Positions 18,742 through 21,518 of a DNA stretch of 33,292 bases are shown here, in pieces. A program made the translations under genes and the position numbers. The notes below the pieces were generated by a model. It saw only the letters and a program-made list of their open reading frames with translations. It ran no database searches and was not told the origin of the DNA. This DNA comes from Candidatus Sumerlaeota bacterium (GTDB lineage: Bacteria; Sumerlaeota; Sumerlaeia; MWCT01). The DNA is taken from NCBI GenBank assembly GCA_026398545.1, contig JAPLSR010000267.1, positions 1-33,292 of the forward strand, read 5' to 3'. How positions within the stretch are numbered: position 1 is the stretch's first letter; each line of letters opens with the position of its first letter.

Positions 18742-18819
18742 CGGGGTGTAGCGCAGTTGGTTTAGCGCGCAGCGTTCGGGACGCTGAGGTCGCCGGTTCA
18801 AATCCGGCCACCCCGACCA
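18742..18819 (+). tRNA. tRNA-Pro(CGG)
   Basis: Acceptor stem CGGGGTG/CACCCCG, anticodon arm CAGCG-TTCGGGA-CGCTG, T arm GCCGG-TTCAAAT-CCGGC and an encoded CCA. Confidence 0.97.
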
Positions 18820-18822
18820 TAA

Positions 18823-19215
18823 GAAACATTTAACGAATTATATGGATACGAGACTCCAAGTAAAGCTCGAATGATAATAAAAGCTGGTGATGTAATAATA
18901 GCTTCGCTTTCTGGTTCACTAAATAATATAGGGCTAGTTCCAAAACAATTAGATGAAGAATTAGCCAACACGGTTTTCTTCATCATTAATTCAGAGAGAA
19001 GCATCAGCGAATTTTTATTTTTGTTTTTTAGATCAGAAATTTTAAAGATACAATTAGAACAGATGACTGCCGGCGCAATTATGGCGGCTATTCCCAAAGG
19101 TGTTTTCGGTGATTTATTGGTTCCGCTTATTCCTAAACAAAAACAAGAAAAAATAATCGAGTTAGTAAAACAATCTGATGAAGCAATGAAAAGATCGGAA
19201 AAAGTTATTGTTTAA
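18823..19215 (+). pseudogene. 5'-truncated restriction-modification specificity (HsdS/TRD-like) fragment
   Basis: The frame is open from 18823: ETPSKARMIIKAGDVIIASLSGS, EFLFLFFRS, LLVPLIPKQKQEKIIELVKQ. This is one partial TRD plus the conserved helix. Confidence 0.7.
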
Positions 19216-19272
19216 TTTTATAGATTAAAATTAAGATTATCATTATAATAAACTTAAGGAAGGTTAACCTGT

Positions 19273-20328
19273 ATGGCCAAGAAAACAACCAAACAAACAA
19301 AACCCGCCTCTCGTTTAGAGTTAATTAAGCAGATTGGAAAAGAACGAAATTCTGCTGTGATTTGCTATGTTACGGGAGACAGAGAGAATTTTAATACAAA
19401 AATTGGAGAGGATGTTATTCCGATATTTTTTAGGCATCTTGAGTTAATTAGCAATAGAAATAATATAGATCTATTTCTTTACACCAGAGGCGGAGATATG
19501 GTTGTGCCAATTAGAATAGTAAAATTATTAAAAAGTTATTGTAAGAAATTTAGCGTTCTAGTTCCTTACAGGTCACATAGTGCTGGGACGCTTATCGCCC
19601 TTGGTGCTGATGAAATTGTAATGACTAAATTAGGAGAACTAACACCAGTAGATCCCACAACAGAACACCCATTCAATCCGCAAGATCCAGTAGATAAAAG
19701 GAAAGTTATTCCTATTAGCGTTGAGGATATTACTTCATACTTGCTTTTAGCAAAGGACAAAGGTATGGTTAAAGGAAATAAAATGGCTGAAATCTTCGAT
19801 AATCTTACAAAACATTTATATCCAGACTCTAAACATCTTCATCCCCTAGCGTTAGGAAATGTTTACCGCGCTCAAAGAATGATTAGAATTTTGTCTCAAA
19901 GATTATTAAGTTTACATATGGACATTGAAAAAGAAAGTAGTAAAAAAACCATTGACAAAATTGTTAATGAAATTACCAGCGATATATGTATACATAATTA
20001 TCCTATTTACCGAGATGAAGCAAAAGCATTAGGACTTCCAATAATTATGCCAGAGGCCAAGTTGGGGAAATTGCTATGGGATTTATACGAAAAGTATGCT
20101 GAAGATATGGAACTTAGAAAACAATTTAATCCTTTAGAAATTTTAGGACAAGAAAATGGTAAAAATATAAAATATGGAGCGGCTTATATTGAAAGCGTTG
20201 AGGCACAGGATACTTTTTATTATGATATTCGTATAAATAAAATTATGACTCCCCAAGTACCAGCCCAGCTCCCCTTGCCAGCAATAAATGTAAACGTGGC
20301 AGGTTTTTCTTGGGAAAAAGTGAGGTAA
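19273..20328 (+). CDS. SDH-family Clp-fold serine protease
   Basis: IDLFLYTRGGD, HSAGTLIALGADEIVM (Ser), LTPVDP (Asp) and IHNYPIYRDEAKALGL (His), in Ser-Asp-His order. Confidence 0.85.
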   Translation: MAKKTTKQTKPASRLELIKQIGKERNSAVICYVTGDRENFNTKIGEDVIPIFFRHLELISNRNNIDLFLYTRGGDMVVPIRIVKLLKSYCKKFSVLVPYRSHSAGTLIALGADEIVMTKLGELTPVDPTTEHPFNPQDPVDKRKVIPISVEDITSYLLLAKDKGMVKGNKMAEIFDNLTKHLYPDSKHLHPLALGNVYRAQRMIRILSQRLLSLHMDIEKESSKKTIDKIVNEITSDICIHNYPIYRDEAKALGLPIIMPEAKLGKLLWDLYEKYAEDMELRKQFNPLEILGQENGKNIKYGAAYIESVEAQDTFYYDIRINKIMTPQVPAQLPLPAINVNVAGFSWEKVR

Positions 20329-20330
20329 TT

Positions 20331-20756
20331 ATGAATACAACAAACACATCAATTATTAGTGAAAACATTGATTACAACCCACAGCAGGTGGATTCGGTTG
20401 GAAGTTTTCCTATTTTTGCTTTTCCAGACTTTCTTCGCATCGTCATACCTTCGAAAGATGATATTTTCAAAAGAAAAACCGAAAAGTTAGAAATTGAAAA
20501 ATTAAACATTCCTAAAGATGTAGATATACTTGAATTTGCTAAAAATTTTTATTTGGACCACAAAGAAGCTTTATTAAAGAAATATAGAAACAGATATGTT
20601 GCTATCCTGAATAATAAAGTTGTTGGCTCCGATAAAGATTTTTCAAAATTAGCCCAGAGAGTTTACGCAAAATATGGTTATCAAACTATTTATATGCCTT
20701 TTGTTGAAATTGAAGAAAGGATAGTAAGAATTACTTCCCCGAGAATTAAAATTTAA
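20331..20756 (+). CDS. DUF5678-like domain protein
   Basis: C-terminal FYLDHKEALLKKYRNRYVAILNNKVVGSDKDFSKLAQRVYAKYG; GAGG RBS overlapping the upstream stop. Confidence 0.7.
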   Translation: MNTTNTSIISENIDYNPQQVDSVGSFPIFAFPDFLRIVIPSKDDIFKRKTEKLEIEKLNIPKDVDILEFAKNFYLDHKEALLKKYRNRYVAILNNKVVGSDKDFSKLAQRVYAKYGYQTIYMPFVEIEERIVRITSPRIKI

Positions 20757-20784
20757 TAATTTATGTATGGCTAAATAAAAATCA

Positions 20785-21165
20785 ATGTTAGCTTATCCTT
20801 ACAATACAAACAAATTTAACCCTCCAGCTCCTGTTTTTGAGGTTTCTTTATCTTCTCCAACATCTCAAGGAGAAATTATAAAAATTCCAGCTCTCCTTGA
20901 CTCGGGAGCAGATATAACAGTAATTCCACAGAATGTTGCTCAACAATTACAGCTTAAATATGTAGACGAGATTACGGCGACTGGTTACGACGGGGTTGAA
21001 AAAAAGGCGTTTGTCTATTCAGTAAAAATTATTTTTGATAATTTAGGCGATTTTATAATCAAAGTGATTATCTCGGAAAGAGATTATGTCTTAGTTGGAA
21101 GAGATATACTTAACAAATGGTCTGTGTTTTTAAAAGGACGAAATAAGATTTTTGAAATTAGTTAG
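20785..21165 (+). CDS. Single-domain retropepsin-like (clan AA) aspartyl protease
   Basis: ALLDSGADITVIP catalytic motif and C-terminal LVGRDIL; 126 aa. Confidence 0.88.
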   Translation: MLAYPYNTNKFNPPAPVFEVSLSSPTSQGEIIKIPALLDSGADITVIPQNVAQQLQLKYVDEITATGYDGVEKKAFVYSVKIIFDNLGDFIIKVIISERDYVLVGRDILNKWSVFLKGRNKIFEIS

Positions 21166-21208
21166 TTTAATTCGGCGGTTCGCTCGCCAGTTTTGAGCGT
21201 TGGGTGGG

Positions 21209-21233
21209 TGTGCGTCGCCGAAGGCGACGCACA
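21209..21233. repeat. Perfect 11-bp GC-rich inverted repeat with a GAA loop
   Basis: TGTGCGTCGCC-GAA-GGCGACGCACA. Confidence 0.9.
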
Positions 21234-21326: not shown

Positions 21327-21518
21327 TTAAAATCCCTTTGGACTTTGGAAACAGCGGGGAAAATAGGTAGATATCTATTCTTTCGTCATTTCTTCACGCA
21401 TGCTTACGGTTTCCTTATAGATGAGGCAAAATTAAAACCTTTAATGAACAACATCCCAAACGTTTATTCTGAGTTCAAAGGGGAAATAGATAATTATCTC
21501 ACAAAAATTGAAGGATGA
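21327..21518 (+). pseudogene. C-terminal remnant of a HepT-like HEPN ribonuclease toxin
   Basis: Manual translation: LKSLWTLETAGKIGRYLFFRHFFTHAYGFLIDEAKLKPLMNNIPNVYSEFKGEIDNYLTKIEG*. It has an RHxxxHxY motif and an in-frame stop immediately upstream. Confidence 0.7.

What the first reader, a model, noticed from the sequence alone, without database searches (positions are those of the whole stretch)
19273..21165. Intact two-protease module (SDH Clp-fold serine protease, DUF5678-like protein, retropepsin) in a decayed defence islet
Seen: three tightly spaced, co-oriented AT-rich genes with intact catalytic motifs (S-D-H; DSG), flanked by broken R-M and HEPN genes. The middle protein has a roughly 70 aa low-structure N-terminal extension before the DUF5678-like domain. 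Established: single-domain retropepsins must dimerise to be active, and tRNA islets often carry anti-phage genes. Inference: a proteolytic cascade or TA-like switch in which the middle protein is an inhibitor or substrate whose cleavage releases the aspartyl protease. It is a candidate undescribed defence system.
Basis: partly seen in the sequence, partly recalled or inferred. Interest (0 to 1): 0.75.

Follow-up and report, generated by a model that had tools for sequence, protein, structure and literature searches.

The report
Protease-headed toxin-antitoxin-like three-gene cassette
Three intact genes (a ClpP-like serine protease, a small tailed protein and an HIV-protease-like enzyme) travel together between distant bacteria, and in relatives the last two are swapped for classic toxin-antitoxin pairs, so this is probably an undescribed three-part toxin-antitoxin system that carries its own protease.

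Summary
Window 19273-21165 encodes an intact SDH-type ClpP-fold serine protease, a 141-aa DUF5678 protein with a low-confidence N-terminal region of about 60 aa, and a 126-aa retropepsin. They lie in a 32-34% GC islet next to tRNA-Pro, between an HsdS-like remnant and a HepT remnant.

The trio recurs in order in 9 of 9 testable related loci from other phyla. DNA similarity stops at the cassette edges.

In the same SDH clade, 41 of 55 testable loci have two tightly coupled downstream genes. The second is PIN, MazF, ParE-like or retropepsin. The first is a small protein with an S/T-rich, K/R-poor N-terminus.

DUF5678-retropepsin pairs also occur without SDH: 22 of 39 loci had the pair, and none had SDH.

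Best reading (about 0.4): a tripartite toxin-antitoxin-protease module. The retropepsin is the toxin, the DUF5678 protein is the antitoxin or inhibitor, and SDH acts on the antitoxin's disordered tail.

Binding, cleavage, toxicity and phage defence are all untested. PADLOC gave no hit for the three genes and the complex prediction gave no verdict.

One supplement in print lists SDH_sah as an untested putative toxin next to a Panacea-domain antitoxin. I found no paper describing the three-gene principle.

The parts
18742..18819 (+). tRNA-Pro(cgg); left border of the low-GC islet (context)
   Evidence: ARAGORN. The GC drop starts right after it. The tRNA and the flanking genes are conserved in relatives, but the islet DNA is not.
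18871..19215 (+). Remnant (114 codons) of the specificity end of an R-M enzyme
   Evidence: PADLOC Specificity_I E 1e-11 and mad5 E 8e-13. It aligns to residues 698-799 of the 821-aa HSDR_N/N6_Mtase/Methylase_S fusion that sits directly upstream of the cassette in L010 (25% identity, E 2e-8).
19273..20328 (+). SDH-type ClpP-fold serine protease, 351 aa, intact
   Evidence: Pfam PF01972 at 67.7 bits. Invariant Ser/Asp/His columns. ClpP, 1510-N and SppA are the best fold matches, Z 6.7-7.9. 3183 homologues.
20331..20756 (+). Middle protein, 141 aa: S/T-rich, K/R-free N-terminal tail, a linker, a DUF5678 domain and a conserved C-terminal IPSPRIKI-type end. It is the putative antitoxin or inhibitor.
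   Evidence: Pfam DUF5678. 113 homologues, mostly about 139 aa. Alignment A2. It starts 3 nt after the SDH stop.
20785..21165 (+). Single-domain retropepsin-like aspartic protease, 126 aa; the putative toxin or effector
   Evidence: Pfam RVP, gag-asp_proteas and Asp_protease_2. TIGR03698 E 7e-10. D-S-G and G-R-D motifs conserved.
21345..21518 (+). HepT-like (HEPN toxin) C-terminal remnant, 57 codons (context)
   Evidence: Pfam HepT-like_2 E 1.6e-7, profile positions 57-109 of 110 only.

Best explanation
The three genes form a mobile, self-contained tripartite toxin-antitoxin-protease module.

Inferred roles:
- The retropepsin, active as a homodimer, is the toxic effector.
- The DUF5678 protein holds it in check through its C-terminal domain and tail.
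- The ATP-independent SDH ClpP-fold protease acts on the middle protein's disordered, hydroxyl-rich N-terminal extension. The free antitoxin is therefore short-lived whatever host the module lands in.
- When synthesis of the operon stops, through loss of the element or shut-off by a phage, the antitoxin decays and the retropepsin is released.

Shown:
- The gene content, intactness and tight coupling.
- Co-transfer of the trio between phyla.
- Replacement of the last two genes by classic TA pairs in sister cassettes.
- The compositional likeness of the antitoxin N-termini.

Inferred: every protein-protein step, the direction of proteolysis, the toxicity and the biological role.
For: 1. The trio is conserved. 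Among the 80 best of 230 SDH relatives in genome contigs, all 9 testable loci of the retropepsin clade keep SDH -> DUF5678 -> retropepsin (L003, L004, L005, L006, L008, L009, L010, L012, L050). Two more, L007 and L011, end at the contig edge. The record titles name at least 7 different phylum-level groups.

2. The cassette is the unit of transfer. blastn similarity to the eight closest of these loci spans only window 19260-21174. None of 20 relatives of the host has the islet DNA.

3. The downstream pair is swappable.
- In the 60-row SDH clade (SH-aLRT 98; quick tree), 41 of 55 testable loci have two co-oriented downstream genes.
- The median gap is 4 nt from SDH to the middle gene and 0 nt from the middle gene to the third gene (n=40).
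- The third gene is retropepsin in 9, PIN in 18 (one weak), MazF/PemK in 3 and ParE/RelE-like in 1, the last below the curated cut-offs.
- Seven more belong to one family with the PIN-hitting L015.
- The MazF loci are nested inside a PIN clade.
- 5 of 6 viral-contig relatives show the same layout, 3 of them with PIN.

4. The first downstream protein is always small.
- In one locus it carries a Panacea/SocA antitoxin domain.
- With one representative per class (n=20), the first 25 residues hold 25% S+T against 12.9% in 382 control ORFs (p 4e-10), and 5.8% K+R against 14.4% (p 2e-6).

5. DUF5678 -> retropepsin is an independent two-gene unit.
- 22 of 39 SDH-less DUF5678 loci have an aspartic protease next door, and none of the 39 has SDH.
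- In three clear pairs the DUF5678 protein is only 75-94 aa.

6. The SDH catalytic-type residues are invariant. Stand-alone SDH genes exist in 11 Patescibacteria loci and one E. coli phage-plasmid, so the protease alone is tolerated.
Against: - No interaction or cleavage is shown.
- A de novo motif search over 20 class representatives found no shared N-terminal motif (LLR 172.8 against a null of 173.3 +/- 2.9). The tail likeness is therefore only compositional. My regex count (19 of 40 against 36 of 591) was chosen after seeing the sequences and includes related rows.
- Some SDH-less DUF5678 proteins are also long (118-192 aa as ORFs), so an N-terminal extension is not unique to SDH cassettes.
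- The host has Lon, so it needs no extra protease.
- In the window the retropepsin has lost the 2-nt coupling seen in relatives (28-nt gap, no clear SD).
- 14 of 55 testable clade loci have SDH without a cassette.
- The Panacea paper's Dataset S1 files SDH_sah itself as a putative toxin, 'pT86', untested.
- Earlier scan notes say the DUF5678 and retropepsin genes are sometimes fused. That fits a prosegment as well as it fits an antitoxin.
Confidence: 0.4

Rival explanations
1. Type VI-like polarity. The middle protein is a proteolytic adaptor: its C-terminal domain grips the toxin and its N-terminal tail docks on SDH, so that SDH destroys the toxin. The toxin accumulates only when the protease or adaptor fails.
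For: The middle proteins have a two-part build (tail plus toxin-matched domain) and no DNA-binding domain hit. One cassette (L045) uses a Panacea/SocA-type domain. NCBIfam names that family as the type VI SocA antitoxin, and passages of PMC8832971 describe SocA as an adaptor to ClpXP. A protease encoded in the module makes sense as part of the antidote.
Against: SDH has no ATPase or unfoldase domain or partner in the cassette. By what is known of ATP-independent ClpP-fold peptidases (recalled), it should cut only unfolded chains, not folded PIN, MazF or retropepsin domains. PMC8832971 reports that most Panacea antitoxins act by direct binding (passage seen).
Confidence: 0.12
2. SDH is itself a toxin or effector. 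The middle protein is a double antidote whose N-terminal tail blocks SDH as a pseudo-substrate and whose C-terminal domain blocks the second toxin.
For: Dataset S1 of PMC8832971 lists 'SDH_sah superfamily' proteins as putative toxin cluster pT86, directly upstream (T|A, -17 nt) of a Panacea antitoxin in 2 genomes, not tested. From recall and an earlier scan note, a DefenseFinder system FS_HP_SDH_sah pairs an SDH_sah protease with a hypothetical protein.
Against: Stand-alone SDH genes of the same clade sit in conserved chromosomal places with no small downstream partner in 11 testable Patescibacteria loci. A 36%-identical one stands alone in an E. coli phage-plasmid. An unguarded toxin would not be expected to do so.
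Confidence: 0.12
3. Maturation. SDH clips the N-terminal extension once, as a processing step that is needed to make the middle protein (or the retropepsin complex) functional, as prosegments are removed from other proteases.
For: Earlier scan notes report DUF5678-retropepsin fusions and compare the partner to the retroviral transframe prosegment (unchecked here). The N-terminal region has low model confidence.
Against: It does not explain why the same protease heads PIN, MazF and ParE pairs, which need no processing.
Confidence: 0.08
4. No functional link. SDH and the pair are separate selfish units that merely collect at the same insertion spots.
For: The DUF5678-retropepsin pair and SDH each occur alone. 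The complex prediction gave no answer.
Against: Gaps of a few nucleotides. Co-transfer of exactly the three genes. 41 of 55 loci have a cassette in the same position and orientation. The N-terminal composition bias is shared across unrelated middle proteins.
Confidence: 0.08

Closest known systems
Toxin-antitoxin-chaperone (TAC) systems, such as M. tuberculosis HigBA-SecB-like and CmdTAC (PMC5105189 and PMC6377645 abstracts; PMC11618068 abstract)
   Same: A conserved third gene is attached to different TA families. The antitoxin carries an extra terminal segment that ties it to the third protein. The third protein controls antitoxin stability.
   Different: Here the third protein is a ClpP-fold serine protease, not a SecB-like chaperone. 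The extension is N-terminal and is alike only in composition. The expected effect is destabilising rather than protecting.
RosmerTA and other ImmA-protease TA systems (PMC10440598, passages seen)
   Same: A protease-domain component stays constant while the toxins are swapped, PIN-like ones among them.
   Different: In Rosmer the metalloprotease (Peptidase_M78/ImmA) protein is itself the antitoxin and the system has two genes. No M78 hit occurs here. This protease is a serine ClpP-fold enzyme, and a separate small protein sits between it and the toxin.
SocAB type VI TA (NCBIfam NF047745 name; PMC8832971 passages)
   Same: Neutralisation depends on a ClpP-family protease. One sister cassette (L045) has a SocA/Panacea domain in the middle protein.
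   Different: SocA uses the host ClpXP, and no protease gene is in the module. The window's middle protein has DUF5678, not Panacea.
PanAT putative toxin cluster pT86 'SDH_sah superfamily' (Dataset S1 of PMC8832971) and DefenseFinder FS_HP_SDH_sah (recalled; lead from an earlier scan note)
   Same: An SDH-type protease lies next to a small partner in TA-like or defence loci.
   Different: Those are listed as two-gene units with the protease as toxin or effector. I saw no third toxin gene and no swapping principle described. I could not test membership because no DefenseFinder models are on hand.
DUF5678-retropepsin two-gene cassette (Pfam PF18929 with PF13650/PF13975; earlier scan notes)
   Same: The window's last two genes are a member: same order, same domains, tight linkage.
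   Different: Here the pair is headed by SDH, and the DUF5678 protein has an added N-terminal stretch of about 60-65 aa compared with the 75-94 aa partners in three SDH-less pairs.

Membership tests
SDH-type ClpP-fold serine proteinase (Pfam PF01972; NCBIfam NF047768) | Profile match above the curated cut-off | tested here: met
   Pfam gives 67.7 bits against a cut-off of 31.3. The NCBIfam equivalog model gives only 78.3 bits against 250, so it is a family member at Pfam level but not an NF047768 equivalog.
SDH-type ClpP-fold serine proteinase (Pfam PF01972; NCBIfam NF047768) | Conserved Ser, Asp and His residues | tested here: met
   S103, D127, D152, H132 and H241 are invariant in 16 sequences of 51-100% identity. 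Which Asp and which His are catalytic is inferred, not shown.
SDH-type ClpP-fold serine proteinase (Pfam PF01972; NCBIfam NF047768) | ClpP/crotonase fold | tested here: met
   Model pLDDT 74. Foldseek best hits are ClpP, E 2.7e-3, prob 1.0. VIA-align gives Z 7.9 for ClpP, 6.9 for 1510-N and 6.7 for SppA. These Z values are middling.
Retropepsin-like clan AA aspartic protease (PF00077/PF13975; TIGR03698) | Profile match above the cut-off | tested here: met
   RVP 30.1 against 20.7, gag-asp_proteas 31.6 against 28.2, Asp_protease_2 28.5 against 24.3. TIGR03698 reaches 39.1 against 57.35, which is not met.
Retropepsin-like clan AA aspartic protease (PF00077/PF13975; TIGR03698) | Catalytic D-S/T-G and the downstream G-R-D/N motif | tested here: met
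   D39, G41 and G105 are invariant and R106 is at least 90% conserved in 17 proteins.
Retropepsin-like clan AA aspartic protease (PF00077/PF13975; TIGR03698) | Homodimer forms the active site | not tested
DUF5678 (PF18929) | Profile match above the cut-off | tested here: met
   33.9 bits against 23.2. Own-genome search gives 35.7 bits.
Type II toxin-antitoxin system | Small upstream gene tightly coupled to a downstream toxin gene | tested here: met
   The median middle-to-third gene gap is 0 nt in 40 cassettes. The window has a 28-nt gap.
Type II toxin-antitoxin system | The toxin position is held by known toxin families in homologous cassettes | tested here: met
   PIN/VapC, MazF/PemK and ParE/RelE-like.
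Type II toxin-antitoxin system | The toxin arrests growth; the antitoxin binds and neutralises it | not testable with these tools
   This needs expression experiments.
TAC-type tripartite TA | SecB-like chaperone as third component | tested here: not met
   The third component is PF01972.
RosmerTA | ImmA/IrrE (Peptidase_M78) antitoxin | tested here: not met
   No such hit in the three proteins or in the middle proteins of the sister cassettes.
DefenseFinder FS_HP_SDH_sah | SDH_sah protease plus the system's hypothetical-protein partner | not testable with these tools
   No DefenseFinder profiles are on hand. PADLOC-DB 2.0.0 gave 0 families for the SDH and middle proteins.

The most novel reading that the evidence does not exclude
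This would be a new class of tripartite 'toxin-antitoxin-protease' systems.

- A dedicated, ATP-independent ClpP-fold (SDH) protease is hard-wired to exchangeable TA pairs through a hydroxyl-rich N-terminal handle on the antitoxin.
- That makes antitoxin turnover independent of host Lon or Clp, and so portable across more than ten phyla and insensitive to phage inhibitors of host proteases.
- Within it, the DUF5678-retropepsin pair would be a new TA family whose toxin is an HIV-protease-like enzyme.
- The whole would act in abortive-infection defence or in addiction to mobile islands, often beside R-M genes.
Probability: 0.3. Interest if true: 0.85.

Novelty: new variant of a known kind. Interest (0 to 1): 0.7.

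Why it matters
How and when antitoxins are degraded is a long-standing open point for toxin-antitoxin biology and for TA-based phage defence. The known systems lean on host Lon or Clp proteases or on a chaperone.

A module that brings its own protease would make that step directly testable with three small genes. It would give a function to the little-studied SDH branch of the ClpP fold and to DUF5678. It would also add a retroviral-type aspartic protease to the list of bacterial toxins.

The swappable design (one protease; PIN, MazF, ParE or retropepsin as payload) also offers natural chimeras for mapping what the protease recognises.

Tried and rejected
- **Complex prediction.** Complex prediction of SDH (A1) with the middle protein (A2) scored 0.00 in both runs, 'no answer'. 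The first attempt met a full queue.
- **Middle-protein model.** The AlphaFold model of the middle protein was poor (mean pLDDT 43), so no fold search was run on it.
- **PDB sequence searches.** No hits for the SDH profile or the middle-protein profile. The retropepsin gave only weak rows, HTLV-1 and EIAV protease at E 0.009-0.03.
- **Shared N-terminal motif.**
  - A Gibbs search over 30 small partners gave LLR 256 against a null of 228 +/- 3.4. That signal came from related Firmicutes mini-proteins.
  - With 20 TA-linked class representatives it vanished, so I dropped the motif claim.
- **U155 third genes.** hhalign against the PIN alignment gave probability 0.7% and the PDB profile search found nothing. 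They are linked to PIN only through their family member L015.
- **Short, SDH-less relatives of the PIN-class middle protein.** A search of 401 genomes of that phylum found only the query's own genome.
- **Promoters and terminators.** Promoter-like sites were no more frequent than in shuffles and there were 0 terminators.
- **Expression.** No RNA holder is listed among the sequencing runs, and read laying was not used.
- **Attachment-site repeat.** No direct repeat of the tRNA end marks the islet border.
- **ESM Atlas.** It only returned DUF5678 and unnamed clusters.
- **Literature.**
  - Searches found no paper on SDH with TA pairs, on DUF5678 (1 unrelated paper), on PF01972 (1 unrelated) or on retropepsin toxins.
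  - The NetFlax text and the supplements that are held do not mention them; file 1 was cut when stored.
  - bioRxiv supplements and the Fillol-Salom 2022 paper could not be seen.
Full report
**What is there**

The window holds three co-oriented ORFs at 19273-20328, 20310/20331-20756 and 20785-21165. They lie in a stretch of 32-34% GC, against about 50% around it. The stretch begins right after tRNA-Pro(cgg) at 18742-18819.

- **First gene.** It matches Pfam SDH_protease (67.7 bits, cut-off 31.3) and, below the equivalog cut-off, NCBIfam Clp_like_SDH.
- **Second gene.** It matches DUF5678 in its C-terminal half (33.9 bits, cut-off 23.2).
- **Third gene.** It matches RVP, gag-asp_proteas and Asp_protease_2.
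- **Left flank.** A 114-codon HsdS-like remnant lies at 18871-19215 (PADLOC Specificity_I, E 1e-11).
- **Right flank.** A 57-codon remnant at 21345-21518 matches only the last half of HepT-like_2.
- **Defence models.** PADLOC has no model hit for the protease or the middle protein, and only two rows at E 0.01-0.02 for the retropepsin.

The likely start of the middle gene is ATG 20331. It lies 3 nt after the SDH stop and follows a GAGG.

**The proteins look functional**

- In 16 SDH relatives of 51-100% identity, Ser103, Asp127, Asp152, His132 and His241 are invariant.
- The SDH model (pLDDT 74) finds ClpP first by Foldseek (E 2.7e-3, prob 1.0).
- By VIA-align it finds ClpP, the 1510-N stomatin protease and SppA (Z 6.7-7.9, which is middling).
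- The retropepsin keeps D39-S-G and G105-R-D in an alignment of 17 proteins.
- The middle protein has 113 homologues, nearly all about 139 aa. Its DUF5678 core and its C-terminal 'IPSPRIKI'-type end are conserved, and its N-terminal ~35 residues are moderately conserved.
- Its model is poor (pLDDT 43, residues 1-61 below 50). That fits disorder but does not prove it.

**The trio is one mobile unit**

A scan of one genome per species found 230 SDH relatives, of which the best 80 were kept.

- All 9 loci of the retropepsin clade that have enough downstream DNA keep SDH -> DUF5678 protein -> retropepsin (L003, L004, L005, L006, L008, L009, L010, L012, L050). L007 and L011 end at the contig edge.
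- The record titles assign these loci to Ratteibacteria, Aerophobota, Cloacimonadota, WOR-3, Aminicenantota, Saccharimonadota and Bacteroidota. These are MAG labels, so binning errors are possible.
- SDH identity is 70-82% in the eight closest loci and 52% in L050. The middle protein is 41-65% identical and the retropepsin 62-76% in the eight. L050's retropepsin was too divergent for tblastn and was identified by Pfam.
- At DNA level, similarity to the eight closest loci spans window 19260-21174 and nothing else.
- None of 20 relatives of the host genome has the islet DNA, although the DedA gene, the tRNA and the rhomboid gene around it are conserved. One relative (G027) has about 6.6 kb between the tRNA and the rhomboid gene.

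**The key finding: the last two genes are a swappable pair**

In a quick IQ-TREE tree of 80 SDH proteins, one clade of 60 rows (SH-aLRT 98) holds the window and 59 loci. Four of the 59 end too early to test.

- Of the other 55 loci, 41 have two co-oriented genes right behind SDH.
- The median gap is 4 nt before the first of these genes and 0 nt before the second (n=40).
- The second gene is:
  - a retropepsin in 9 loci;
  - PIN in 18 loci, one of them weak. In two (L049, L061) my ORF picker first missed the middle ORF, which searches then showed;
  - MazF/PemK in 3 loci;
  - ParE/RelE-like in 1 locus, below the curated cut-offs.
- Seven more form one family (alignment A4) with L015, which hits Pfam PIN at 29.7 bits. 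A profile-profile test against the other PIN group failed.
- One middle protein (L045) carries the Panacea/SocA antitoxin domain.
- MazF cassettes are nested inside a PIN clade, and ParE sits beside PIN and U155 rows. So pairs were exchanged behind a slowly changing protease.
- Five of 6 viral-contig relatives (34-48% identity) show the same layout, three of them with PIN.

Loci without a cassette:

- The 14 clade loci without a cassette include 11 testable Patescibacteria loci. There SDH stands alone in a conserved chromosomal setting with BacA and ParA/ParB.
- The 20-row outgroup (mostly Bacillota) has no TA pair. In 14 of its loci a 53-85 aa ORF follows SDH, and in three of the loci scanned (L068, L075, L078) the next gene is dapB.

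**What the middle proteins share**

They do not align across classes, and neither Pfam nor NCBIfam recognises them, apart from DUF5678 and Panacea. Their N-termini are alike in make-up.

- With one representative per class (n=20), the first 25 residues hold 25% Ser+Thr against 12.9% in 382 control ORFs from the same loci (p 4e-10). They hold 5.8% Lys+Arg against 14.4% (p 2e-6).
- A motif I thought I saw, [DEN][ST][ST]..., occurs in 19 of 40 middle proteins against 36 of 591 control ORFs. It was chosen after looking at the sequences, and many rows are related.
- An unbiased Gibbs search over the 20 representatives did no better than shuffles (172.8 against 173.3 +/- 2.9).
- So I claim a compositional handle, not a motif.

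**The pair also lives alone**

- DUF5678 loci were collected in the host's phylum (5 of 75 genomes have a match), in five genomes that carry sister cassettes and in 301 genomes of the phylum of L009 (12 of 301 have a match; that tally includes the unpublished G231, which I otherwise left out).
- Of 39 SDH-less loci, two pairs of which overlap, 22 have an aspartic protease next to the DUF5678 gene.
  - Eleven were found by an HMM I built from ten retropepsins.
  - Fourteen were found by Pfam among 33 hand-picked flanking ORFs.
  - Three were found by both.
- None of the 39 has an SDH hit, though these loci reach only about 1.5 kb to each side.
- In three clear pairs the DUF5678 protein is 75-94 aa, so the window's 141-aa form carries roughly 60 extra N-terminal residues.
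- Other SDH-less DUF5678 ORFs are long too, for example a tandem-domain 192-aa ORF. Length alone is therefore not diagnostic.
- Earlier notes of this scan had already found this two-gene cassette to be widespread and unstudied. They had also noted SDH proteases 'heading swappable cassettes', often near R-M genes.

**Context**

- Directly upstream of the cassette in L003 and L010 lies a homologous HSDR_N/N6_Mtase (+Methylase_S) fusion enzyme (41% identity between the two).
- The window's HsdS-like remnant aligns with the last 100 residues of the L010 enzyme (E 2e-8). So the 'broken R-M gene' is probably what is left of a neighbour that travelled with the cassette.
- Other flanks hold transposases (L004, L009, L050, L011) and an AbiEii gene (L005). 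Some are plain housekeeping genes (L008).
- This context is mobile and partly defence-like, but it is not decisive.

**Mechanism**

Replacement of the last two genes by textbook TA pairs is the best evidence that the retropepsin stands in the toxin position and the DUF5678 protein in the antitoxin position.

The protease is catalytically intact, has no unfoldase partner in the cassette, and is translationally coupled to a protein with a disordered-looking tail. The simplest reading is that SDH keeps the free antitoxin short-lived, making a TA module that carries its own protease (confidence about 0.4).

Three other polarities remain open:
- an adaptor that feeds the toxin to SDH, like SocA with ClpXP (passages of PMC8832971);
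- SDH as a toxin in its own right. Dataset S1 of PMC8832971 lists 'SDH_sah superfamily' as untested putative toxin pT86 upstream of a Panacea antitoxin in two genomes;
- a one-off maturation cut.

The host has Lon, so the extra protease is not there to fill a gap in this genome. Whether the module serves addiction, phage defence or both is untested.

**Novelty**

The closest known designs are:
- TAC systems, where a chaperone is the third part and the antitoxin has a C-terminal extension (abstracts of PMC5105189 and PMC6377645);
- RosmerTA, a metalloprotease antitoxin with swappable toxins (passages of PMC10440598);
- type VI SocAB.

My searches and look-ups in two papers and the supplements that are held found the pT86 table rows and a general remark that 'proteases' occur as accessory third genes. 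They found no description of an SDH-headed three-gene system, of DUF5678 as an antitoxin or of a retropepsin toxin. The DefenseFinder system FS_HP_SDH_sah is known to me only from recall and an earlier scan note, and I could not test membership.

I rate this a new variant of a known kind (tripartite TA systems), with interest 0.7.

Noticed in passing
window 18871-19215; L003:1410-3194; L010:1071-3533: A homologous HSDR_N/N6_Mtase(/Methylase_S) fusion R-M enzyme lies directly upstream of the cassette in L003 and L010 (41% identity between the two). The window's HsdS-like remnant aligns to the last ~100 residues of the L010 enzyme (E 2e-8). The R-M gene may have travelled with the cassette and been cut down here.
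   Followed up: partly
window 21210-21232: A perfect 9-bp GC-rich hairpin (GTGCGTCGC, 5-nt loop, GCGACGCAC) lies 45 nt after the retropepsin stop, outside the conserved cassette. No T-run follows, and the terminator scan did not call it.
   Followed up: no
L001:1028-2094 (own genome, contig C129), minus strand: A second, shorter SDH protease (282 aa) in the same genome is followed by an overlapping 75-aa ORF. This is a different SDH cassette type without a TA pair.
   Followed up: no
L062-L082 (Bacillota-type SDH clade): In 14 of 20 loci SDH is followed by a 53-85 aa ORF. Several of these share a 'TG(T/D)SG(C/Y)PSAEF'-like stretch, and dapB is the next gene in L068, L075 and L078. These may be small substrates or partners of the protease.
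   Followed up: partly
G027:C399 (relative of the host), between the tRNA-Pro match at 1-68 and the rhomboid match at 6712-7334: The same tRNA-Pro/rhomboid junction spans about 6.6 kb in a relative, where the window has about 2.7 kb of unrelated islet. The site looks like a variable insertion hotspot.
   Followed up: no
L103 (E. coli plasmid NZ_CP081794.1, 4748-5743): A 36%-identical full-length SDH 'serine protease' stands alone between the Q antiterminator and the holin/lysis genes of a phage-plasmid. It would be a cultivable starting point for studying this protease family.
   Followed up: partly
L113/L124 (G129:C15, about 3150-3497): One 192-aa ORF carries two DUF5678 matches in tandem and is followed by a 138-aa ORF. 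This is a duplicated-domain form of the partner protein.
   Followed up: no
L097:1732-7080 (viral contig): An SDH + 127-aa + 161-aa cassette sits between a ResIII/DEAD helicase-type gene and a tyrosine integrase gene on a predicted viral contig.
   Followed up: no
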